A stretch of 64,000 nt of DNA from a virus, in IMG/VR virus record IMGVR_UViG_3300009347_000008. One strand, 5' to 3'. Made by a program: the position numbers and the translations under genes. Position 1 is the stretch's first letter. Each line of letters starts with the position of its first letter. Below the pieces are notes generated by a model that saw only the letters and a program-made list of their open reading frames with translations, was not told the origin of the DNA and did not search any database. Of the stretch, positions 26,482-51,956 are shown piece after piece.

Positions 26482-28166
26482 TAACTAAAGATACTGACAC
26501 GTCTATTATATGTTGTAGCTTATATAATAGGTTTAACGTGTTTACAAGAAAAGAACTTTACGTACCTTTTTCTGGAAGAAGATATATTATCACTAATACT
26601 GGTAAGATATTAGATTCTGAGAAGAAAGAAATTCCTGTTGAAATAATTGATAGGTCTATTTTTGTGGAAATTGATTGGTTACTTGGTAGGAGAAAATATC
26701 TCTTGTCTGTAATAGTAATGTTCACTTATGGATCTCTTAAAGTACCAGATCATCTACTAGACTTAGTAGAACCTCTTTACGTTGATGGTGATTTTAGAAA
26801 TTTAACACCCCAGAATCTTATCTATAGATTCAAAACCCCACTAGAAGTAGAAAACTATCCTGGTTTTTTCCTTATACCCTTTTATGTTAATTACGCTTTA
26901 AGTAAGAATGGCTCATTAATTAATATAGAAACTGGTAAGGAAAAACAATGGTCAGTAACATCAACTGAAAACAATAAAAAGAATCAAAAAGGTGGCTATT
27001 ACTTTAGCCGTGTACTTAATGATTTCGGTTTCAGTAAGTGTTTATTTCTACACAGAGCATTATGTTTAGTTTTCAAAGAGTACGATAACAAAGTCCAGTC
27101 ACTTGTGGTCAATCATAAGGATGGTAATCCATCTAATAACCACTTAGATAATATCGAATGGTCTACTTATAAAGAAAATAATAATCACGCTATTGCCATG
27201 GGTCTTAGATCAGATAATAAACCTATCTTATCGAAGAACATTAAAACTGGTGAGATCATGAAATTCTCCAGTATTAATGAATGTGGAAGGTATTACAATG
27301 CTCCTAGAGCAGGTTTTATCCAACATAGGTTGAAGAAATCTGGCAATAAAATATATTCGGATTATTTATTATTTAAGTATGACGACGGGACAGAGTGGCC
27401 ATCGATAGACCTTAATAAAGTCGAAATTATCCGAGGCGGCAGAAGTGACTTAATCAAAGCTAGAAATGTCTTTACTGGTGATGTTATTTTATTCTTAGGT
27501 GCTGAAAAAGGCTCTCACTTAACAGGTGTTAAAAAAGCTACTATTTTAAATCACGTAAAAAAAGGACACTTGATACCTTGTAAAGGTTGGAATTTTAAAT
27601 GGGACAACGACGAGACTCCGTGGCCTAACCACACACATCGTCATTTGAAAGTCTATGAAAAATTCCCAATCTTTCCTCCCACTGGTGCAATTATTTTTGA
27701 TACGGAATTAAACGAGGAGCTTTTCTTTGAGAGTGTAGCTTTAGCGTGTAATTTCTTAAATATCACTAAACATGTTTTTAGTGATTACGCTAAATCAAAA
27801 ACTTTATTAAAGAAAAGATATTCGCTTACGTATTTTCATCTTGTGAAAAGTCTAGGTCTCCCTACAGAGTAATCTGTAGTAAAAAACTATGTGAATTGAC
27901 TGGAACAAGCTTAGAGCCTCATACACTCCCTACTCCAGTAATGAGAGTAGTACAGTAAAAGAGATGAGGATTGTTTAACCAGCAGCCAAGCTTCCTGACC
28001 AACGACGTGAGTCGCCGTCAGGGTGAAGGTTCAGAGACTACATACCACAAGTGTGGTTAGCGCATAGCCCCATTATTCAATGGGTGAAGATATAGTCCGA
28101 TCTATAAGGAAACCTTATAGCGGGTGCCATAGCGTACCGGCTTAGTCTAACGAACTAAGTGGACAG
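26482..28166 (+). mobile_element. Group I intron (~1.7 kb) in the DNA polymerase gene, carrying an HNH endonuclease ORF; boundaries approximate
   Basis: Canonical P7 elements: R = GGTTCAGAGACTACA (28026-28040) and S = GAAGATATAGTCC (28088-28100), with the P7 pairing GACTA/TAGTC. A P9 hairpin TATAAGG-aaa-CCTTATA follows. The intron ends with G28166, directly before an in-frame exon whose first residues are KLDVSASYPN (polymerase motif A). Confidence 0.6.
26538..27872 (+). CDS. Intron-encoded HNH homing endonuclease (444 aa; GTG start)
   Basis: HNH core VVNHKDGNPSNNHLDNIEWSTYKENNNHA; located inside the group I intron. Confidence 0.7.
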   Translation: MFTRKELYVPFSGRRYIITNTGKILDSEKKEIPVEIIDRSIFVEIDWLLGRRKYLLSVIVMFTYGSLKVPDHLLDLVEPLYVDGDFRNLTPQNLIYRFKTPLEVENYPGFFLIPFYVNYALSKNGSLINIETGKEKQWSVTSTENNKKNQKGGYYFSRVLNDFGFSKCLFLHRALCLVFKEYDNKVQSLVVNHKDGNPSNNHLDNIEWSTYKENNNHAIAMGLRSDNKPILSKNIKTGEIMKFSSINECGRYYNAPRAGFIQHRLKKSGNKIYSDYLLFKYDDGTEWPSIDLNKVEIIRGGRSDLIKARNVFTGDVILFLGAEKGSHLTGVKKATILNHVKKGHLIPCKGWNFKWDNDETPWPNHTHRHLKVYEKFPIFPPTGAIIFDTELNEELFFESVALACNFLNITKHVFSDYAKSKTLLKKRYSLTYFHLVKSLGLPTE

Positions 28167-41608: not shown

Positions 41609-42394
41609 TTAGTCGGAAGAATAATTAAAATCTTTCCAGAGTGGGGATTTACTTTTTAACCTCGCTATCATGGTATTAATCTTAATACCATATTCAGCGG
41701 CAGCTTCTGAAATAGAAGAATAGATTTTACCTTCGCAGATAACTTTACGTGTTTTAGGTCGAATATCAAGTAAAGAACAATTTCCATTATGGAGTCTGCT
41801 TCTTATTGTCTGGACAGCTACCCCAGTTTCCCGGCTAGCTTCTCTAACGGAGTTATATTCTACACCATCAACAACTATATTTTCTCCCATTGATGAGATC
41901 ATTTTTGATCTAAGTAAACTATTCTTCCATCTTTCTTTAGAAAGATTAGAAGCTAATATTCTACCTTCCTTCGATTTACTAAATTGATTCCTCAATTCAA
42001 CAGGAATCGAATTAGCTGCAAAAGCATTTACTGCATTACTAGCTATATTAAAGAGTATTCCGCTATTAATACCTTCATTTAAGATACACTGTTCTCTTTC
42101 TTGTGCATTTTCTACACTTGTTTCTAAGGAAATATGAACAATAAAGTTATCTTTATCATTCTCATCATAGTTTTTTTGAAGATTTCTATTTCTGTGTACT
42201 GATCTCTCCAATTCACTTAAATGATTCTTAAGCCTCAGATTTACATTATTAGTACTCCCAACATAGAAGCAGCCAGTTTTATTATTTTCTATAGCATAAC
42301 AAGCAGGCAATAATGGGACACAAAGTAATCTTAAATCTACTAATTTTAAAATTATCCTGTTATTAATATTATCTAGGAAGAAATTCGATTCCAT
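41609..42394 (-). CDS. Free-standing GIY-YIG homing endonuclease (261 aa) with C-terminal NUMOD-like DNA-binding repeats
   Basis: CYAIENNKTGCFYVGSTNNVNLRLKNH (GIY-YIG core) and two IxVxGxxYxSxxEAA repeats; the coding region is very AT-rich. Confidence 0.65.
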   Translation of the reverse strand: MESNFFLDNINNRIILKLVDLRLLCVPLLPACYAIENNKTGCFYVGSTNNVNLRLKNHLSELERSVHRNRNLQKNYDENDKDNFIVHISLETSVENAQEREQCILNEGINSGILFNIASNAVNAFAANSIPVELRNQFSKSKEGRILASNLSKERWKNSLLRSKMISSMGENIVVDGVEYNSVREASRETGVAVQTIRSRLHNGNCSLLDIRPKTRKVICEGKIYSSISEAAAEYGIKINTMIARLKSKSPLWKDFNYSSD

Positions 42395-44370: not shown

Positions 44371-45162
44371 TTATCCAAATATACGTTTGTTTCTTTCGTC
44401 GATACTGCTATTAGTAAATGACTCTGGCTGAATTTCAATAACGTACTTACTGAATTCATCACCTTCTAAATGTACTTTCTTTCGCTTGATATAGATACCA
44501 TTCTTGAACTTGGTATTAATATTATCCCAATCGTATTTGTGTACTTCTTTGATAATACGGATACGTTCAACAAAAGTTTTATTATCAATATCTTTACCGA
44601 TACCTAAATCACTGCTGATAGCAATGATACATTTCTTGCTATTCTCTCTTTCTGCCCAAAGTAGAGCGTTGCCTGTTTCAGTTCTGTTAGGTACTCTGAA
44701 GATAGTAACATCAAAAGCTGGATAGACTCCACGATCATATAGTTCATCGATGTCCCTAGACTCTGCTAGTTTCAAAGAGAAGTGGGTGGCAGCAGAACTA
44801 GTAACAGCGCTTACTAGTTTTTGTTTCTTACCGCCATATTCAAGGGGAGCTTTCTCAGTTCCATGAATGACCATCATGATCTCTGAAACGCCCACATGTG
44901 CGTACTTAGCTTTAAAGGTGTTAAGCAGATAAGTAGCAGTTTGTTGCATTAGATCAAAGCATCCAAAATCGAATGGAGTTTCAAACACTTTGGAGAAACG
45001 TCGAATATTCTTGAAAGAAATCCTTACAAGAAGGACACTATTGGTAGGATTGAATGCTTGATCTTTCTCCTGATCTTGGTAGTAAGACATTCGTTCATAT
45101 AGACACATTCTACTTTTTTCTTTAGTAGTTAGTGGTTGGCCGGTCATAGGCTTTTCTCTCAT
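44371..45162 (-). CDS. Thg1-like protein (tRNA-His guanylyltransferase / 3'-5' nucleotidyltransferase family), ~263 aa from the internal Met (MREKPMTGQP...)
   Basis: LLVRISFKNIRRFSK resembles VVVRLDGRNFHRF of human THG1L (recalled). HVGVSEIMMVI is a weaker resemblance to the downstream GQSDEYSFVF block. An AAGGTGA RBS precedes ATG 45162. Confidence 0.5.
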   Translation of the reverse strand: MREKPMTGQPLTTKEKSRMCLYERMSYYQDQEKDQAFNPTNSVLLVRISFKNIRRFSKVFETPFDFGCFDLMQQTATYLLNTFKAKYAHVGVSEIMMVIHGTEKAPLEYGGKKQKLVSAVTSSAATHFSLKLAESRDIDELYDRGVYPAFDVTIFRVPNRTETGNALLWAERENSKKCIIAISSDLGIGKDIDNKTFVERIRIIKEVHKYDWDNINTKFKNGIYIKRKKVHLEGDEFSKYVIEIQPESFTNSSIDERNKRIFG

Positions 45163-45249
45163 CACTGTCACCTTTAAGTTACTGTATAATAACGGTATTA
45201 TACACATAATGTTTTTTGTTTATTTTATTTATCATTAGTACGGCATAAA

Positions 45250-46125: not shown

Positions 46126-46305
46126 TCCTCACCGAAGTGAATGCAGTCTAGGAACCACCCTAAACCATGCTCTTTAGAGTCCAGTTTAGGTTCCCCCGTT
46201 GCCTGAAGCTGGTGGGTTAATCCGGTCAGTATGTAATTAGTAAATAATAGTATTACCTCTATAACTTAATGTTAAAGAGATGAATACTAGATAGTGTATA
46301 AGCGT

Positions 46306-46352
46306 CGCGTTAGGGGAGTTAACCCCTAACGATCCCGGCCTTCACGGGATTG
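46306..46352. terminator. Two tandem hairpins (CGTTAGGGG-agttaa-CCCCTAACG and ATCCCG-gccttca-CGGGAT) downstream of the GC-rich gene at 46367..46876
   Basis: Perfect inverted repeats on the 3' side of the minus-strand gene. Confidence 0.55.
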
Positions 46353-46366
46353 GACCTAGCGCACTT

Positions 46367-46876
46367 TTACTTGCGAGGAGCAGCCTTGGTAGCAGCGCGA
46401 GGAGTTGCCTTCTTCGCAGCAGCCACGGCTTGACCTTGTTCCTTGAATGCAGTCAGCACCTTCTCAGCATTGGCTTGCAGCCATTCGAGAGGAACACCAT
46501 GTTGCAGTTCACGAGAAACAGGAGCACCCAGCAGAACCATCAACGGGATGTAATCGCGGGTTTCAGCACCGTAAGCACGAGCCAGTGCAATGTTCTTTGC
46601 GCTCTCGCGAGCAGCAGCGATCACACGGTTCGCATTACGAATGGCTTCGAACTGAGCACGCAGTTCAGCATCGGCAACACTATTGATTGCCATGATTTCC
46701 TTGACAGCAGCGCGAGTTGCTTCCTTACGGTTAGCAGCCAGTTCTTCTTCCATGATAGCTTGGATCTCAGCATCATGAATCACGGGCAGACCGAATGCAG
46801 CCAGAGCTTCCTTTTCAGCAGTGGAAGCAGCCAGATCAGTCAGGGCATGGATGTTAACAGCGATGAGCTTGTTCAC
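46367..46876 (-). CDS. Ala-rich protein with a basic C-terminal tail (169 aa), strongly GC-rich; candidate abundant DNA-binding/virion protein
   Basis: Composition (A/E/K-rich, C-terminal AAAKKATPRAATKAAPRK) and GC content far above background. Confidence 0.6.
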   Translation of the reverse strand: MNKLIAVNIHALTDLAASTAEKEALAAFGLPVIHDAEIQAIMEEELAANRKEATRAAVKEIMAINSVADAELRAQFEAIRNANRVIAAARESAKNIALARAYGAETRDYIPLMVLLGAPVSRELQHGVPLEWLQANAEKVLTAFKEQGQAVAAAKKATPRAATKAAPRK

Positions 46877-47739: not shown

Positions 47740-47932
47740 GTGAAAACTTTCATTGCTAAAGATCAATTTATTCGAAATCACGGATCTTAGAAAAAACAAT
47801 ATCGATAGTCATTTTTCAGTCTCTTTGAAAAAATGATGGCATAAAGAGTGTTGGACTACCGCTACTCATCATTAGGTCTCTGGAGGGTGGAGGGAGGAGA
47901 GAGACCTAATAACTTTCACAATAGCCCAAACA

Positions 47933-48474
47933 TGGTGCCCCGAGCCGGAGTCGAACCGGCACGCTACTTAATTCGCAGGAGATTTTCTTACCACTATAGT
48001 TTTCACTACCAAACAACTTACCATACGTTAAAGGATCTTAGTTTGTTTGTGGTCTGGACTATGCCTTGATCATGCCCACGTCTGGGTTTAGATCGGAACC
48101 GTCTAGTCTCTACACTTTCCTAATCACTGATTAGGCTTAGCTCGGCGTTGTCATGTTAATATCCAGAGGGTTACTTCTAGTGTAACATAGGTAGCTGGCA
48201 CTACACACCCTATACCGGGATTATCCTATTAATTTAGAGTTCGCCGAATTTGATTCCATTCACCTAGTAACTCCGACTGACATATAGGTCTTTCTCCTAT
48301 ATTTAATGCGCTTATCGGATGGCGTCGATACAGATAACTGTTGTCGTTACTATTTTACCGTCTTTCGATTGACTGTTACGCCTATAATAGACTACCAATC
48401 ATTTTTTCGGTGGTGCTCAATATAGCTATCGCTATCTTAAAGTCTCCGGTGTCTACCAATTTCACCATCGGGGC
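47933..48474 (-). tRNA. tRNA-Leu(UAA): tRNA-Leu(UAA) split by a group I intron. Exon 1 is 48440..48474, the intron is 47987..48439, and exon 2 is 47933..47986 (CCA encoded).
   Basis: Exon 1 reads GCCCCGA-TG-GTG-AAATTGGTAGA-CAC-C-GGAGA-CUU. Exon 2 reads AAAA-TCTCC-(17-nt variable arm)-GCCGG-TTCGACT-CCGGC-TCGGGGC-A-CCA. The acceptor stem (GCCCCGA/TCGGGGC) and anticodon stem (GGAGA/TCTCC) pair perfectly. The anticodon is U34|A35A36, with the intron inserted exactly between U34 and A35. Confidence 0.8.
47987..48439 (-). ncRNA. ORF-less group I intron (453 nt) inside tRNA-Leu(UAA)
   Basis: Minus-strand P7 elements: R-like GTGTAGAGACTAGACGG (rc of 48100-48116) and S-like AAGGCATAGTCC (rc of 48053-48064), pairing GACTA/TAGTC. 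P8 is the hairpin CCCA-gacg-TGGG. P9 is the 8-bp stem CAAACAAC/GTTGTTTG. The 5' splice site follows U34 and the last intron nucleotide is G. No ORF of 60 aa or more lies inside. Confidence 0.75.
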
Positions 48475-48493: not shown

Positions 48494-49351
48494 TTACTTC
48501 GATGGAGTAAGATTTTGAAGATTTACAAAAGGTGTAGCTTCACCAACCACTTGAGGAAGAACACCATTCCATTTCTCAATTGCGAGTTGAGTCAGGACTT
48601 GAGGGTTAGCACGAAGAGCTTCACCACGGATACGGGCTGCTTCTGCTTCACCCTTAGCCAACGCAATAGCTTTGGCAGCATCTGCATTGGCTGCACGCAG
48701 TTCGTTTTCCTTTTGTTGTGCAATCTGTGTAGCAGCAATCTTGTTATTGATTGTCTTATACACAGCTTCAGGGAGTTTCATCTGTCCAACAAAGTAAACA
48801 CTTTCAATAGTGATACCTACTGCTTCTGCACGCTTACGGACATCATCTTCAACCTTTTTTTGCAGCTCAGCTTTACCTGCGCCATATGCATCTTCAACCG
48901 TAACTGAAGAAGCTGCAAGATTCAGAGAATCACGAATCATTGCACGCAGATATACTTGAGTAATCTCATCCACACCACGGCGGTATTTCTGAAAGACTGC
49001 TGGAGCATTCTCTGACTTGATGTAGTAGCTGATACCAAGATCAGTCTTTACAGACAGACCTTCAACTGTTTGGAAAGCAAACGATTCATCAGAGCGACCA
49101 TCTGCTTTGTCGTTGGTATTGTCATTACCACTAGACCAAACAAACGATTGGGTGAATGTTGGGAAAAGGAATAGATCCGTATTAGGACCAATCCAATAAC
49201 GCCCTGGACCAAGTACCGTAACGTTGACACCGCGTTCATCACCGTATTTGTCAATCTTCACACCAACATTGCCTGCTGGCACTGGACTACATCCGGTAGC
49301 GAAGATACCCATTGTAATAACAGCAACAATCATCCAAAGACGCTTAAACAT
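48494..49351 (-). CDS. SPFH/Band-7 (stomatin/HflC-like) lipoprotein (285 aa)
   Basis: Signal peptide with a Cys lipobox (MGIFATGC), followed by a conserved SPFH core and a long Ala/Glu-rich coiled-coil tail (AEAARIRGEALRANPQVLTQLAIEKW). Confidence 0.7.
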   Translation of the reverse strand: MFKRLWMIVAVITMGIFATGCSPVPAGNVGVKIDKYGDERGVNVTVLGPGRYWIGPNTDLFLFPTFTQSFVWSSGNDNTNDKADGRSDESFAFQTVEGLSVKTDLGISYYIKSENAPAVFQKYRRGVDEITQVYLRAMIRDSLNLAASSVTVEDAYGAGKAELQKKVEDDVRKRAEAVGITIESVYFVGQMKLPEAVYKTINNKIAATQIAQQKENELRAANADAAKAIALAKGEAEAARIRGEALRANPQVLTQLAIEKWNGVLPQVVGEATPFVNLQNLTPSK

Positions 49352-49775: not shown

Positions 49776-50285
49776 TTAGATACTACAAACGTAGATTTGA
49801 ATTGGATACTTCTGGGCAACGTCTTGTACCAATGGATACACTTCTGTATTCCAATCAAGGCCACCAAACCCACAACCGATCTTCGGCATTGCAATTGATT
49901 TAGGGAGAGACTCTGTGTATTGCACAGAATGAGCTAAATGCAGTAGTGCTGTATGAATACTAGTTTGATCAGCATATTTAGCACCGTCTTTACCGTAGAA
50001 GTTCTGGGTAAAGAGATTAGCAATGAAAGTATCTTTGTCTTTCACTATTTGGGAAAGACCAAGTAATTGATTAGCTCTATTTGGATCGCAGAAACGTCCG
50101 AAAATAAAAGACTCACCAGAATTACCTGTAAGGTACAGCCTCATGTACTCTTCATAAGCCTTTGGGTATTGCGCTCTTACCTGTTTGGCTACACCAGAAT
50201 TCATTTTACCTTGACAGTTAACACCATGAGCAATAACTGAGGTATTAGAGAAATCAAAAACAGACTGGCTTCGATATTCGATCAT
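49776..50285 (-). CDS. Macro-domain protein (ADP-ribose binding/processing; ~169 aa from MIEYRSQ...)
   Basis: VIAHGVNCQGKMNSGVAKQV (like the macro NAAN...GGGV segment) and PKIGCGFGG (like the GIGxxG segment). The track start 50327 would overlap tRNA-Met, so the start was moved. Confidence 0.65.
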   Translation of the reverse strand: MIEYRSQSVFDFSNTSVIAHGVNCQGKMNSGVAKQVRAQYPKAYEEYMRLYLTGNSGESFIFGRFCDPNRANQLLGLSQIVKDKDTFIANLFTQNFYGKDGAKYADQTSIHTALLHLAHSVQYTESLPKSIAMPKIGCGFGGLDWNTEVYPLVQDVAQKYPIQIYVCSI

Positions 50286-50299
50286 AATAAGAATCCTAG

Positions 50300-50374
50300 T
50301 GGTGGGAAAAGCGGGATTCGAACCCACGCCTTAACGATTATGAGTCGTCAGTACTACCGCTATACGATCTTCCC
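50300..50374 (-). tRNA. tRNA-Met(CAU): tRNA-Met or tRNA-Ile2 (anticodon CAU), CCA encoded
   Basis: GGGAAGA acceptor stem pairs with TTTTCCC; anticodon arm GACGA-CTCATAA-TCGTT; T arm GTGGG-TTCGAAT-CCCGC. The G1-C72 pair argues for an elongator type. Confidence 0.75.
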
Positions 50375-51368: not shown

Positions 51369-51956
51369 TCACCAGTATTTCATTACTGTATTTCTGGAGA
51401 TTTTTAATTGATCTGCGATCTTGTAAACACTTAAACCTTGGCTCCTGAGAGCTTTGATTTGATTAATAATATCTTGACTCTTTGTTCGACCTACAGGAAA
51501 AGCTTCTGGATTTGTTTCTATTTGATATTTAGCTTTACATGAATTAGAACAGAAGATTAGTCCACTACCATTATTAGTATAATGTTTGTAGAACTTTTCA
51601 CCCATACTTCTTTCAGTTAAAGTAAAATCTTTACCACAATATGGACAAGCTAAATCAAATTTCTGCTGTACATTATTGATGTAATGTAAGCGTTGCTTCT
51701 CTCGATTTTGTTCAGGTGTTAGGATTTGAAGATTGTTAGGATCATCATTGGTTTTATTATTGTCAATGTGGTCTACTTCTTCTTGGTCAGTTAAGAAGCG
51801 ACCAAGCTTAACCGCCATTAAATATCTAGCCAATGTAGTTCCTGTTAGAGAACCATCAAATCTTTTTAATGTGACAGCTCTCCTGCCTTCATTATTCACA
51901 TAAACATAACCTGCCTGATACTCAGTATTAAAAGGATATTCTAAATCTATTTTCAT
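51369..51956 (-). CDS. Free-standing HNH endonuclease (195 aa) embedded in the tRNA cluster
   Basis: VDHIDNNKTNDDPNNLQILTPEQN (HNH_3-type) followed by a Cys cluster (CPYCG...CSNSC) and a C-terminal HTH-like segment. Confidence 0.65.
   Translation of the reverse strand: MKIDLEYPFNTEYQAGYVYVNNEGRRAVTLKRFDGSLTGTTLARYLMAVKLGRFLTDQEEVDHIDNNKTNDDPNNLQILTPEQNREKQRLHYINNVQQKFDLACPYCGKDFTLTERSMGEKFYKHYTNNGSGLIFCSNSCKAKYQIETNPEAFPVGRTKSQDIINQIKALRSQGLSVYKIADQLKISRNTVMKYW

What the first reader, a model, noticed from the sequence alone, without database searches (positions are those of the whole stretch)
47933..48474. Phage tRNA-Leu(UAA) gene interrupted by a group I intron at the canonical U34/A35 anticodon position
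All canonical stems of the tRNA-Leu(UAA) gene form only once 453 nt are removed from between U34 and A35. The acceptor stem is GCCCCGA/TCGGGGC and the anticodon stem is GGAGA/TCTCC. The D arm is Leu-type and a long variable arm is present. The gene ends in TTCGACT and an encoded CCA. The intervening sequence has group I hallmarks in the correct order and strand: R-like GTGTAGAGACTAGACGG, S-like AAGGCATAGTCC (P7 pairing GACTA/TAGTC), a P8 hairpin, an 8-bp P9 stem, a 5' splice site after U, and a terminal G. This is exactly the insertion site of the ancient cyanobacterial/plastid trnL(UAA) group I intron. Finding it inside a phage-borne tRNA cluster is unusual. It suggests either capture of a host trnL-with-intron or a phage route for moving this intron. 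The intron carries no ORF of 60 aa or more and is twice the size of the ~250-nt cyanobacterial versions, so it has extra peripheral structure.
Basis: partly seen in the sequence, partly recalled or inferred. Interest (0 to 1): 0.85.

Follow-up and report, generated by a model that had tools for sequence, protein, structure and literature searches.

The report
Self-splicing intron in phage tRNA-Leu
A phiKZ-like giant phage has a leucine tRNA gene split in its anticodon by a 453-base group I intron of the same family as the classic cyanobacterial/plastid tRNA-Leu intron, and such introns prove common, though barely described, in phage tRNA genes.

Summary
On the minus strand, 48474-47933 encodes tRNA-Leu(UAA) interrupted between U34 and A35 by a 453-nt intron (48439-47987). 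ARAGORN finds it only when introns are allowed.

Rfam's general group I model scores it below threshold (36 bits). A covariance model built from 36 independent phage tRNA-Leu introns, with the window left out, scores it 116 bits (E about 1e-30). That is in the range the same model gives cyanobacterial tRNA-Leu introns (118-139 bits). P1 has the U.G wobble at the 5' splice site, all of P2-P9 are fully paired, and the intron ends in G.

It has no ORF. Its extra length lies in P2 (about 147 nt), P5 (about 80 nt) and L9a. None of these is the L6 site where related introns carry HNH endonuclease genes.

The core motif hit at least 120 viral contigs, and 56 loci carry tRNA-Leu(UAA) introns at the same site. 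Unannotated copies exist in phage Atu_ph07 and in 595-735 kb phages. The window's intron and exons are closest to the phage copies, not to cyanobacterial or Burkholderia ones.

Verdict: a real new member of a known kind. Splicing is inferred, not shown.

The parts
47933..48474 (-). Complete interrupted tRNA-Leu(UAA) gene (pre-tRNA, 542 nt)
   Evidence: ARAGORN with introns allowed: tRNA-Leu(taa) c[47933,48474], intron 453 nt
48440..48474 (-). 5' exon, tRNA positions 1-34 (35 nt). It ends with C32 U33 U34
47987..48439 (-). Group I (IC3-type) intron, 453 nt, with no ORF of 40 aa or more on the sense strand
47933..47986 (-). 3' exon: A35 A36, anticodon-stem 3' strand, long variable arm, T arm, acceptor 3' strand, A73, and encoded CCA (47935-47933)
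48416..48442 (-). P1 hairpin. Exon C32-U33-U34 (48442-48440) pairs with the internal guide GAG (48418-48416), giving the U34.G wobble at the 5' splice site. It includes an extra 5-bp stem AUAGC/GCUAU (48435-48431 / 48426-48422)
   Evidence: Fold z-score -3.44. Pair check. The guide UUGAG is conserved in 35 of 36 family members
48261..48415 (-). P2. The base CACC/GGUG (48415-48412 / 48264-48261) encloses an expansion of about 147 nt in place of the family's short GAAA-capped hairpin
   Evidence: There is no homolog of the expansion in any fetched locus
48252..48257 (-). P3 5' strand GGAAUC, which pairs with 48100-48095 GGUUCC (6 of 6 pairs)
   Evidence: Family covariation in 4 of 6 P3 pairs
48141..48248 (-). 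P4 (UUCGGCG 48248-48242 / CGCCGAG 48147-48141) enclosing an expanded P5 (48241-48148). The model alignment shows an 80-nt insertion here
48115..48140 (-). P6/P6a hairpin. The P6 pair is U-A where the family has C-G or G-C. There is no endonuclease gene here, unlike the long relatives
48099..48115 (-). R element GUGUAGAGACUAGACGG: J6/7, the P7 5' strand (GACUA, 48108-48104) and the start of P3'
48068..48094 (-). P8 hairpin (GAUC/GAUC closing CCCA/UGGG) with a receptor-like UCUAAA...CAUGA motif
   Evidence: Fold z-score -2.56. Pair check
48056..48067 (-). S element AAGGCAUAGUCC. The P7 3' strand is UAGUC, 48061-48057
   Evidence: The P7 compensatory change A-U to U-A is seen in 7 family members
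47990..48053 (-). P9 domain. P9 is ACCAC/GUGGU. P9a is CAAAC/GUUUG (48045-48041 / 48014-48010) with an enlarged 26-nt loop. P9b is UAGU-GAAA-ACUA (48008-47997)
47987..47987 (-). Terminal intron guanosine (omega G) at the 3' splice site
   Evidence: It is invariant in the family alignment

Best explanation
The locus is a phage-encoded tRNA-Leu(UAA) gene whose anticodon loop is interrupted, between U34 and A35, by a 453-nt group I intron with no ORF. The intron belongs to the tRNA-anticodon (IC3-type) family that includes the cyanobacterial/plastid trnL intron and the Azoarcus-type tRNA introns.

Shown by sequence and comparison:
- The exons assemble into a canonical type II tRNA-Leu.
- The intron has the full P1-P9 architecture. 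This includes the U.G wobble at the 5' splice site, the P3/P7 pseudoknot, and a 3'-terminal G.
- It is a homolog of a large, covariation-supported intron family.

Inferred: the primary transcript self-splices by the standard two-step guanosine-initiated transesterification. Exogenous G bound at P7 attacks after U34. The freed U34 3'-OH then attacks after the terminal G at 47987. The ligated product is a mature tRNA-Leu(UAA) that already carries CCA. This tRNA would supply decoding of UUA/UUG. Those codons make up 38% of the Leu codons in this 40%-GC phiKZ-like jumbo phage.

The intron has no homing endonuclease gene, so it is now probably immobile on its own. It belongs to an intron lineage that is mostly found in phage tRNA genes. 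Its unusual length comes from lineage-specific expansions of P2, P5 and L9a.
For: Detection and structure in the window:
It is the only such call in the window.
- RF00028 scores 36.2 bits, E 1.7e-7, over 48341-48035.
- All 13 helices in the window are 100% paired. P1 has CG, UA and U.G at the splice site, and position 47987 is G.
- The P1 hairpin folds with z = -3.44 and P8 with z = -2.56.

Family support:
- The structure on 36 independent phage trnL introns shows 92.6% of cells paired, against 41% or less when partners are slid. 30 of 55 pairs carry compensatory changes, including in P3, P4, P6, P7, P8 and P9. None of 500 shuffles reaches the observed values.
- A covariance model built from those 36 sequences, without the window, scores the window 116.3 bits, E 9e-31, from P3 to the 3' splice site. 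It scores Atu_ph07 at 174.7 bits, cyanobacterial trnL introns at 118-139, and Burkholderia at 138-151.

Presence in nature:
- The same pre-tRNA occurs unchanged in four independent metagenome or read-set assemblies: JGI 3300009351, ERR7764199, ERR7850100 and ERR7757503.
- An intron-plus/intron-minus allele pair exists in phages. Cyanophage S-TIM5 has an uninterrupted tRNA-Leu. Related contigs carry near-identical exons with a 198-200 nt intron exactly at CUU|AAAA.

Context:
- Phage identity: a phiKZ internal-head-protein domain and ribonucleotide reductase, and a best protein match of 41% to Burkholderia jumbo phage FLC9.
- Codon use is given.
Against: - There are no RNA data, so splicing is inferred only.
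- Rfam's curated group I model is below its gathering score (36.2 against 50), and the default window scan missed the intron.
- The family model could not align P1-P2 (38 positions skipped), because the P2 tip is replaced by an expansion of about 147 nt. The family's L2 GAAA tetraloop, the presumed partner of the P8 receptor, therefore cannot be identified.
- The P2 and P5 expansions are not significantly more stable than shuffled sequence (z = -1.66 and -1.63). They have no homologs among 450+ fetched loci, so nothing supports their fold.
- Sequence identity of the intron across strain variants is uninformative. The local divergence is only about 0.2%.
Confidence: 0.88

Rival explanations
1. 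The intron is a decayed, splicing-dead relic and the gene is a tRNA pseudogene. The large P2/P5 insertions would have disrupted folding.
For: The expansions show no thermodynamic signal (z about -1.6) and no homologs. The L2 tetraloop cannot be identified. The strain variant L164 has this tRNA-Leu truncated after A31 and replaced functionally by a different, intron-less tRNA-Leu(UAA). That shows the gene can be dispensed with.
Against: Every core helix is perfectly paired. The invariant family nucleotides in R, S, J3/4, P4 and P7 are retained. Differences from relatives are compensatory, for example P3 GGAAUC/GGUUCC and the P6 pair U-A. The exons form an unblemished tRNA. Peripheral insertions at P2, P5 and P9 are common in active group I introns (general knowledge) and in bacterial members of this family.
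Confidence: 0.08
2. The phage recently captured a host trnL gene together with its intron. This differs from the best explanation in origin only, not in what the element is.
For: trnL(UAA) introns at this site are widespread in bacteria, including Burkholderia and Paraburkholderia. A Burkholderiales host is weakly hinted. The adjacent SPFH gene is 64% identical to Burkholderia prophage genes, and the best structural-protein match is Burkholderia phage FLC9.
Against: The intron core is 63-67% identical to the Burkholderia introns, against 77% on average and 83% at most for viral ones. The nearest neighbour is viral in 87% of bootstrap resamples. In the neighbour-joining tree the window lies inside a cluster made almost entirely of viral introns. 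The spliced tRNA is closest to viral tRNA-Leu (82%). Caveats: the host is unknown, both scans were capped at 120 loci, and the tree has no branch support.
Confidence: 0.12
3. The extra 250 nt or so are the remains of a degraded homing-endonuclease gene.
For: Seven related phage introns and two bacterial ones are 680-704 nt long and carry HNH ORFs of about 150 aa. The window phage is rich in HNH endonuclease genes.
Against: In all nine long relatives the ORF lies in L6, between P4'/P6 and R. The window's P6 is short, and its expansions are in P2, P5 and L9a. tblastn of four family HNH proteins finds nothing in the intron. No sense-strand ORF exceeds 36 aa.
Confidence: 0.1
4. Chance juxtaposition: the two halves are unrelated tRNA fragments, or belong to separate complete tRNAs.
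For: None found.
Against: Neither ARAGORN nor the Rfam tRNA model at E up to 10 finds an independent tRNA in the interval. The halves are perfectly complementary in the acceptor stem (7 bp) and the anticodon stem (5 bp). They flank a sequence that scores 116 bits with an independent intron model, and that model's 3' boundary coincides with the exon junction.
Confidence: 0.01

Closest known systems
Cyanobacterial/plastid tRNA-Leu(UAA) group I intron (subgroup IC3 by established classification)
   Same: The host gene and the insertion site are identical (U34|A35...ACUU|...G|AAAAUC...). The P1 guide is the same (UUGAG-type, with the U.G wobble). The P3-P9 core is the same, and the session model scores both in the same range (window 116 bits, cyanobacteria 118-139).
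   Different: Core identity is only 59-64%, the most distant group in the comparison. The R element is the GUGUAGAGACUAGACGG variant rather than GUGCAGAGACUCGACGG. The window intron is 453 nt with P2, P5 and L9a expansions. It sits in a phage, not a cell or plastid.
Azoarcus-type proteobacterial tRNA introns (tRNA-Ile/Met CAU, tRNA-Arg CCU)
   Same: From my memory of the Azoarcus sequence, which I did not re-fetch here, the R element and the J3/4-P4 sequence (CAAAUUCGG) are shared, as are the small core with tetraloop-receptor contacts (L9 GAAA, P8 receptor).
   Different: The host tRNA and the position in the anticodon loop differ (after position 36, against after 34). These introns are about 200 nt and lack the window's expansions.
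Unannotated trnL(UAA) introns in Agrobacterium jumbo phage Atu_ph07 (MF403008, 278 nt) and in 595-735 kb metagenomic phages (LR756501/503/511)
   Same: They are phage-borne, in the same gene and at the same site. The 3' exon and P9 domain are similar enough for blastn to find. Atu_ph07 scores 174.7 bits.
   Different: Atu_ph07 has a normal GAAA-capped P2 and short P5, but an enlarged P8. In the GenBank record the region is annotated as a hypothetical protein, not as a tRNA.
Classical phage group I introns (T4 td/nrdB/nrdD, SPO1 DNA polymerase, Twort, and mobile introns in essential genes of nucleus-forming jumbo phages)
   Same: They are self-splicing group I ribozymes in virulent or large phages. 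Relatives of the window intron also carry HNH homing endonucleases.
   Different: They interrupt protein-coding genes (PMC3984707, PMC12908238). From general knowledge they belong to other subgroups (IA). The window's own second intron at 27826-28120 is of the kind Rfam detects easily (66.5 bits).
'Enigmatic' tRNA introns of Lak megaphages and other jumbo phages (10.1101/356790; PMC13037316)
   Same: They are introns inside phage tRNA genes, highly conserved between samples.
   Different: Those introns were not classified and were said possibly to encode another tRNA. I did not compare their sequences here. The window intron is clearly a group I ribozyme.

Membership tests
Group I intron | Match to the curated Rfam model RF00028 at its gathering score | tested here: inconclusive
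   36.2 bits against a gathering score of 50. E = 1.7e-7 in an 801-nt search. The full-length model aligned across P3-P9, but the gathering-threshold scan of the window missed it. The threshold belongs to one general model and is not a defining feature of the ribozyme class.
Group I intron | Conserved P3-P4-P6 and P7-P3'-P8 core, including the P3/P7 pseudoknot topology | tested here: met
   All pairs form: P3 6/6, P4 7/7, P6 2/2, P6a 7/7, P7 5/5, P8 4/4. Covariation supports these helices in the family. The independent covariance model scores 116.3 bits.
Group I intron | The 5' splice site follows a U that forms a U.G wobble with the internal guide sequence in P1 | tested here: met
   U34 (48440) pairs with G (48418), flanked by C32-G and U33-A. 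The same pair is U.G in 35 of 36 family members.
Group I intron | The intron ends with G (omega G) | tested here: met
   G at 47987. This column is invariant in the family alignment.
Group I intron | Guanosine-dependent self-splicing activity | not testable with these tools
   Needs an in vitro transcript with GTP, or RNA from infected cells.
tRNA anticodon-loop IC3-type introns, trnL(UAA) class | Inserted between U34 and A35 of tRNA-Leu(UAA) | tested here: met
   ARAGORN gives the junction gactt-intron-aaaat. The junction is identical in 69 bacterial loci, including 8 cyanobacterial ones, and in 56 viral loci.
tRNA anticodon-loop IC3-type introns, trnL(UAA) class | Sequence and structure homology with recognised members | tested here: met
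   The same model scores the window at 116 bits, cyanobacterial trnL introns at 118-139, and Burkholderia at 138-151. The label 'IC3' itself rests on the published classification of those members, not on a test made here.
tRNA anticodon-loop IC3-type introns, trnL(UAA) class | Tetraloop-receptor pair L9 GAAA / P5, and L2 GAAA / P8 receptor | tested here: inconclusive
   The L9b GAAA tetraloop (UAGU-GAAA-ACUA) and a P8 receptor-like motif (UCUAAA...CAUGA) are present. The L2 tetraloop cannot be located, because the P2 tip is a unique 147-nt expansion. P5 is also expanded.
Type II tRNA-Leu | After splicing: cloverleaf with a long variable arm, UAA anticodon, A73 discriminator | tested here: met
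   ARAGORN on the spliced 89-mer reports tRNA-Leu(taa), with the structure shown. A73 and CCA are encoded.
Mobile group I intron (carrying a homing endonuclease) | Intron-encoded endonuclease ORF | tested here: not met
   No sense ORF longer than 36 aa. There is no tblastn similarity to the HNH proteins of related introns. The intron is therefore not filed as an autonomous mobile intron.

The most novel reading that the evidence does not exclude
tRNA anticodon-loop group I introns form a lineage that lives and moves mainly in phage tRNA genes. Some copies carry HNH homing endonucleases in L6, and intron-plus and intron-minus alleles coexist. The hosts range from T4-like cyanophages to phiKZ-like, Atu_ph07-like and 600-735 kb phages.

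Phages could then be the vehicle that has spread the trnL(UAA) intron across bacterial phyla. The scattered bacterial distribution, and part of the classic argument for the antiquity of the trnL intron, would need re-examination.

A further possibility is that an intron in the anticodon loop benefits the phage. It could make the tRNA gene immune to the endonucleases that roam phage tRNA clusters. It could also keep the pre-tRNA from being a substrate for host anticodon nucleases until it is spliced.
Probability: 0.3. Interest if true: 0.75.

Novelty: new member of a known kind. Interest (0 to 1): 0.55.

Why it matters
First, annotation. Standard bacterial tRNA and Rfam scans miss this gene. 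The homolog in Atu_ph07 is annotated as a hypothetical protein, and the copies in the 595-735 kb phages lie in records with no annotation. Phage tRNA repertoires, and the codon-usage and host-range inferences drawn from them, are therefore systematically incomplete.

Second, distribution. A 2014 review stated that phage group I introns occur only in protein-coding genes, despite the many phage tRNA genes. Later papers call phage tRNA introns enigmatic. This locus and the more than 50 relatives recovered here show that at least one class is an ordinary self-splicing IC3-type ribozyme, and that it is common.

Third, evolution. The phage copies cluster together, vary in presence between related phages, and sometimes carry HNH endonucleases. 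This makes the old question of how the trnL intron came to be scattered across bacteria directly testable, with phages as candidate vectors.

Fourth, ribozyme design. The 453-nt version without an ORF shows that this normally minimal ribozyme (about 200 nt) tolerates large P2 and P5 insertions. That may interest ribozyme engineers.

Tried and rejected
- Rfam gathering-threshold scan of the window: nothing at this locus.
- Rfam scan of the Atu_ph07 locus at E up to 1: nothing, although the intron is there. RF00028 is insensitive to this subgroup.
- megablast of 24 kb of the window against 50,697 phage records: no match.
- Looking for syntenic relatives through the flanking proteins. The SPFH gene only retrieved Burkholderia prophages. 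The downstream ORF retrieved nothing.
- Searching for an intron-less allele of this exact tRNA with the spliced junction 21-mer, in viral and metagenome contigs. The 21-mer is shared by many unrelated tRNA-Leu genes, and the best full-length match is 88.8%.
- Conservation of the intron between strain variants as evidence of selection. There are zero differences in 542 nt, but the differences from L162 and L163 are confined to two divergent blocks. The local rate is about 0.2%, so the result is uninformative.
- Degraded endonuclease gene in the expansions: rejected.
- Thermodynamic evidence for structure in the P2 and P5 expansions: not significant.
- Homologs of the expansions in more than 450 fetched loci: none.
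- hmmalign could not place the 5' parts of long introns, so ORF positions were located from conserved blocks instead.
- A weak second hit of the family model at 41895-42022 (12 bits, E 0.06), inside an ORF, was treated as chance.
- Eight literature searches found no paper describing IC3/trnL group I introns in phage tRNA genes. The library lacks most subscription journals, so absence is not proof.
Full report
**1. What is in the sequence**

The feature lies on the minus strand. Read 5' to 3', positions 48474-48440 give GCCCCGAUGGUGAAAUUGGUAGACACCGGAGACUU. Positions 47986-47933 give AAAAUCUCCUGCGAAUUAAGUAGCGUGCCGGUUCGACUCCGGCUCGGGGCACCA.

Default ARAGORN finds only tRNA-Met, tRNA-Arg(UCU) and tRNA-Ser(UGA) in the window. 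With introns allowed it adds tRNA-Leu(taa) c[47933,48474], with a 453-nt intron between U34 and A35. This is the only intron-bearing tRNA call in the 64 kb, so the call is not a frequent false positive. The spliced 89-mer is a textbook type II tRNA-Leu with A73 and an encoded CCA. Neither half contains an independent tRNA.

**2. Is the intervening sequence a group I intron?**

Rfam's RF00028 does not reach its gathering score in a whole-window scan. In an 801-nt search it aligns end to end over 48341-48035 at 36.2 bits (E 1.7e-7). That is suggestive but below the threshold of 50. I therefore built an independent test.

The shared R motif GTGYAGAGACTNGACGG hit at least 120 stretches in IMG/VR viral contigs, where the scan stopped at its cap. 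Of the 121 loci then held, 85 have an intron-bearing tRNA around the motif. After correcting splice sites that ARAGORN had misplaced by a few bases, 56 of them (55 IMG/VR contigs plus Atu_ph07) are tRNA-Leu(UAA) split after U34. They contain 48 distinct introns.

I aligned 36 short introns (189-217 nt), without the window, as alignment A1. On A1 I annotated a P1-P9 structure including the P3/P7 pseudoknot. Results:
- 92.6% of cells form standard pairs, against 28-41% when the 3' partners are slid by 1-3 columns.
- 30 of 55 pairs show changes on both sides.
- None of 500 shuffles reaches the observed values on any measure.
- Compensatory changes occur in P2, P3 (4 of 6 pairs), P4, P5, P6, P7 (A-U to U-A in 7 sequences), P8, P9 and P9b.

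The covariance model R1 built from A1 scores the window at 116.3 bits, E about 9e-31, over 48259-47979. That span covers P3 through the terminal G and the first bases of the 3' exon. The same model scores true cyanobacterial trnL introns at 118-139 bits, Burkholderia and Paraburkholderia at 138-151, a Rhodobacter tRNA-Arg(CCU) intron at 122, and CAU-anticodon tRNA introns at 99-102. The window intron is therefore a member of this structural family. E-values from this model are rough; the bit scores are not.

**3. Anatomy in the window **

- P1: exon C32-U33-U34 (48442-48440) pairs with GAG (48418-48416), giving the U.G wobble at the splice site. The hairpin, which has an extra AUAGC/GCUAU stem, folds with z = -3.44.
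- The guide UUGAG is the family's conserved guide. The Us just 5' of it can pair with A35 and A36 of the 3' exon, giving a short P10. This last point is read from the sequence and was not tested statistically.
- P2 base: CACC/GGUG (48415-48412 / 48264-48261).
- P3: GGAAUC/GGUUCC.
- P4: UUCGGCG/CGCCGAG.
- P6: C-G plus U-A, where the U-A is a compensatory variant of the family's C-G or G-C pair. P6a has 7 bp.
- P7: GACUA/UAGUC.
- P8: GAUC/GAUC closing CCCA/UGGG (z = -2.56).
- P9: ACCAC/GUGGU. P9a: CAAAC/GUUUG. P9b: UAGU-GAAA-ACUA.
- Terminal G at 47987.

Every listed helix is 100% paired.

**4. Why the intron is 453 nt**

Distances between conserved blocks show where the extra length sits:
- From the guide to J3/4 (the P2 region): 168 nt, against about 38 in relatives.
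- From J3/4 to P4' (the P5 region): 107 nt, against 31-45.
- The L9a loop: 26 nt, against 4.

There is no sense ORF above 36 aa. Nine long relatives (680-704 nt; seven viral and two bacterial) carry HNH endonuclease ORFs of about 150 aa, in either orientation. In all of them the ORF lies in L6. tblastn of four of those HNH proteins finds nothing in the window's intron. The expansions are therefore not obvious endonuclease debris.

The expansions are not significantly more stable than shuffled sequence (z about -1.6) and have no homolog in any fetched locus. Their role is open. They also remove the recognisable L2 GAAA tetraloop, which is the main structural uncertainty about activity.

**5. 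Context**

The window is a phiKZ-like jumbo phage. It has a phiKZ internal-head-protein domain and ribonucleotide reductase. A 1054-aa protein matches 290 jumbo-phage records, the best being Burkholderia phage FLC9 at 41%. No nucleotide-level relative exists among 50,697 phage records. GC content is 40%, and UUA plus UUG make up 38% of Leu codons in 22 long ORFs. This fits the usual codon-supply role of phage tRNAs, which is an inference.

The same pre-tRNA, base for base, occurs in a 49.8-kb JGI contig and in several Logan assemblies from other runs. It is therefore a real, circulating sequence. The identity says nothing about selection, because local divergence is about 0.2%.

**6. How unusual is the phage setting?**

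In the literature it is unusual. A 2014 review states that all phage group I introns then known were in protein-coding genes, despite the many phage tRNA genes (PMC3984707). The Lak-megaphage preprint says phage tRNA introns had not been reported and calls them enigmatic (10.1101/356790). A 2026 jumbo-phage survey again notes unclassified tRNA introns (PMC13037316). I found no paper describing IC3 or trnL introns in phages, but the searchable library is incomplete.

In the data it is not unusual:
- There are the 56 loci described above.
- 44 of them have further tRNA genes nearby (up to 22), and flanking genes are phage-like, for example a T4-type baseplate hub next to L016.
- GenBank phage genomes Atu_ph07 (278-nt intron, 174.7 bits; the region is annotated as a hypothetical protein) and the 595-735 kb phages LR756501/503/511 carry unannotated homologs.
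- Cyanophage S-TIM5 has an uninterrupted tRNA-Leu whose exons are nearly identical to those of contigs L016 and L058. Those contigs carry a 198-200 nt intron exactly at CUU|AAAA. This is a natural intron-plus/intron-minus pair in phages.

**7. Origin**

105 of them have intron-bearing tRNAs and 69 are trnL(UAA). They are spread over Alpha-, Beta- and Gammaproteobacteria, Acidobacteriota, Bacteroidota, Cyanobacteria, Eremiobacterota and others.

On 140 aligned core columns the window is, on average, 76.7% identical to viral introns and 68.8% to bacterial ones. It is 59-64% identical to cyanobacterial introns and 63-67% to Burkholderia introns. Its nearest neighbour is viral in 87% of bootstrap resamples. 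In a neighbour-joining tree it sits in a cluster that is almost purely viral. The spliced tRNA is also closest to viral tRNA-Leu genes (82%).

This favours an intron lineage resident in phages over a recent capture from a cyanobacterium or from the presumed host. Caveats: both scans were capped, the profile used for alignment was built from viral sequences, the tree has no branch support, and the host is unknown.

**8. Verdict**

The element is a new member of a known kind: a tRNA-Leu(UAA) anticodon-loop group I intron. It is notable for being phage-borne, for being the longest ORF-less copy in the sample through its P2 and P5 expansions, and for pointing to a large, essentially undescribed population of such introns in phage tRNA genes. 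Splicing and any phage-specific benefit remain inferences.

Noticed in passing
window 27826-28120 (+): A second group I intron, easily detected by Rfam (RF00028, 66.5 bits, E 1e-14). Its start overlaps the end of ORF 26538-27872(+), which has an HNH_3 endonuclease domain. I did not identify the interrupted gene.
   Followed up: no
window 46289-46367 (-): A twister-sister ribozyme match above Rfam's gathering score (RF02681, 41.9 bits against 34). It lies 1.6 kb downstream of the tRNA-Leu on the same strand and abuts ORF 46367-46876(-).
   Followed up: no
window 44371-45207 (-) and 49776-50327 (-): A Thg1-like ORF (PF04446, tRNA-His guanylyltransferase / 3'-5' polymerase family, E 2e-14) and an ORF with a Macro-domain hit (E 2e-7 for the whole protein, though no single stretch passed on its own) flank the tRNA cluster. 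This gives the region a tRNA-repair and processing flavour.
   Followed up: partly
window 51369-51956 (-); loci L162 565-751 and L163 631-817: A free-standing HNH_3 + HTH_7 endonuclease gene sits between tRNA-Met and tRNA-Arg. Strain variants that are 98% identical (L162, L163) carry tRNA-Ser(GCU) and tRNA-His(GUG) genes that the window lacks. They also differ from the window upstream of 50931, around where the HNH gene lies. The tRNA cluster is evidently being remodelled, possibly by endonucleases.
   Followed up: partly
L164 1431-2466 (Logan SRR8715492 contig, 2681 nt): This variant matches the window at 99.8% up to A31 of the tRNA-Leu 5' half (window 48443). After that it contains 86 unrelated bases, then a different intron-less tRNA-Leu(UAA) (1549-1635; 51.7 bits with the Rfam tRNA model), then a 272-aa HNH/HTH endonuclease gene. 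The break is 3 nt from the intron insertion site. It could be an endonuclease-driven cassette replacement or an assembly chimera.
   Followed up: partly
window 47860-47918 (-): A 10-bp hairpin (UUAGGUCUCU...AGAGACCUAA) with an 18-nt C-rich loop starts 15 nt after the tRNA's CCA. It has no following U-run, so it could be a processing signal or an unusual terminator. It produced a spurious weak Rfam hit (Pseudomonadales-1, 18 bits).
   Followed up: no
viral loci L010, L032, L053, L056, L060, L079, L085, L091, L120, L121 and others; bacterial loci L170, L182, L187, L202, L214 and others: The same intron core also interrupts other tRNA genes in viral contigs: Arg(UCU), Met/Ile(CAU), Ser(UGA), Lys, Pro and Thr. 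In bacteria it interrupts Arg(CCU), Met(CAU), Ser(UGA) and Tyr. ARAGORN often mislabels these, for example as 'Tyr(ata)', 'SeC' or 'Pyl', because it places the splice site a few bases off.
   Followed up: partly
phage records MH598807 (Pelagibacter phage HTVC120P, 19653-19807), MT774389 and MT774387 (crAss-like cr116_1 and cr111_1): Parts of the tRNA-intron core give blastn matches inside a capsid gene of a pelagiphage and in unannotated stretches of crAss-like phages. This suggests the same intron lineage also sits in protein-coding or other genes.
   Followed up: no
window 48494-49351 (-): The SPFH/Band 7 gene next to the tRNA-Leu is 64% identical at protein level to genes of Burkholderia phiE125/phi1026b-type prophages. 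This is a weak hint at a Burkholderiales host, or at gene exchange with such phages.
   Followed up: partly
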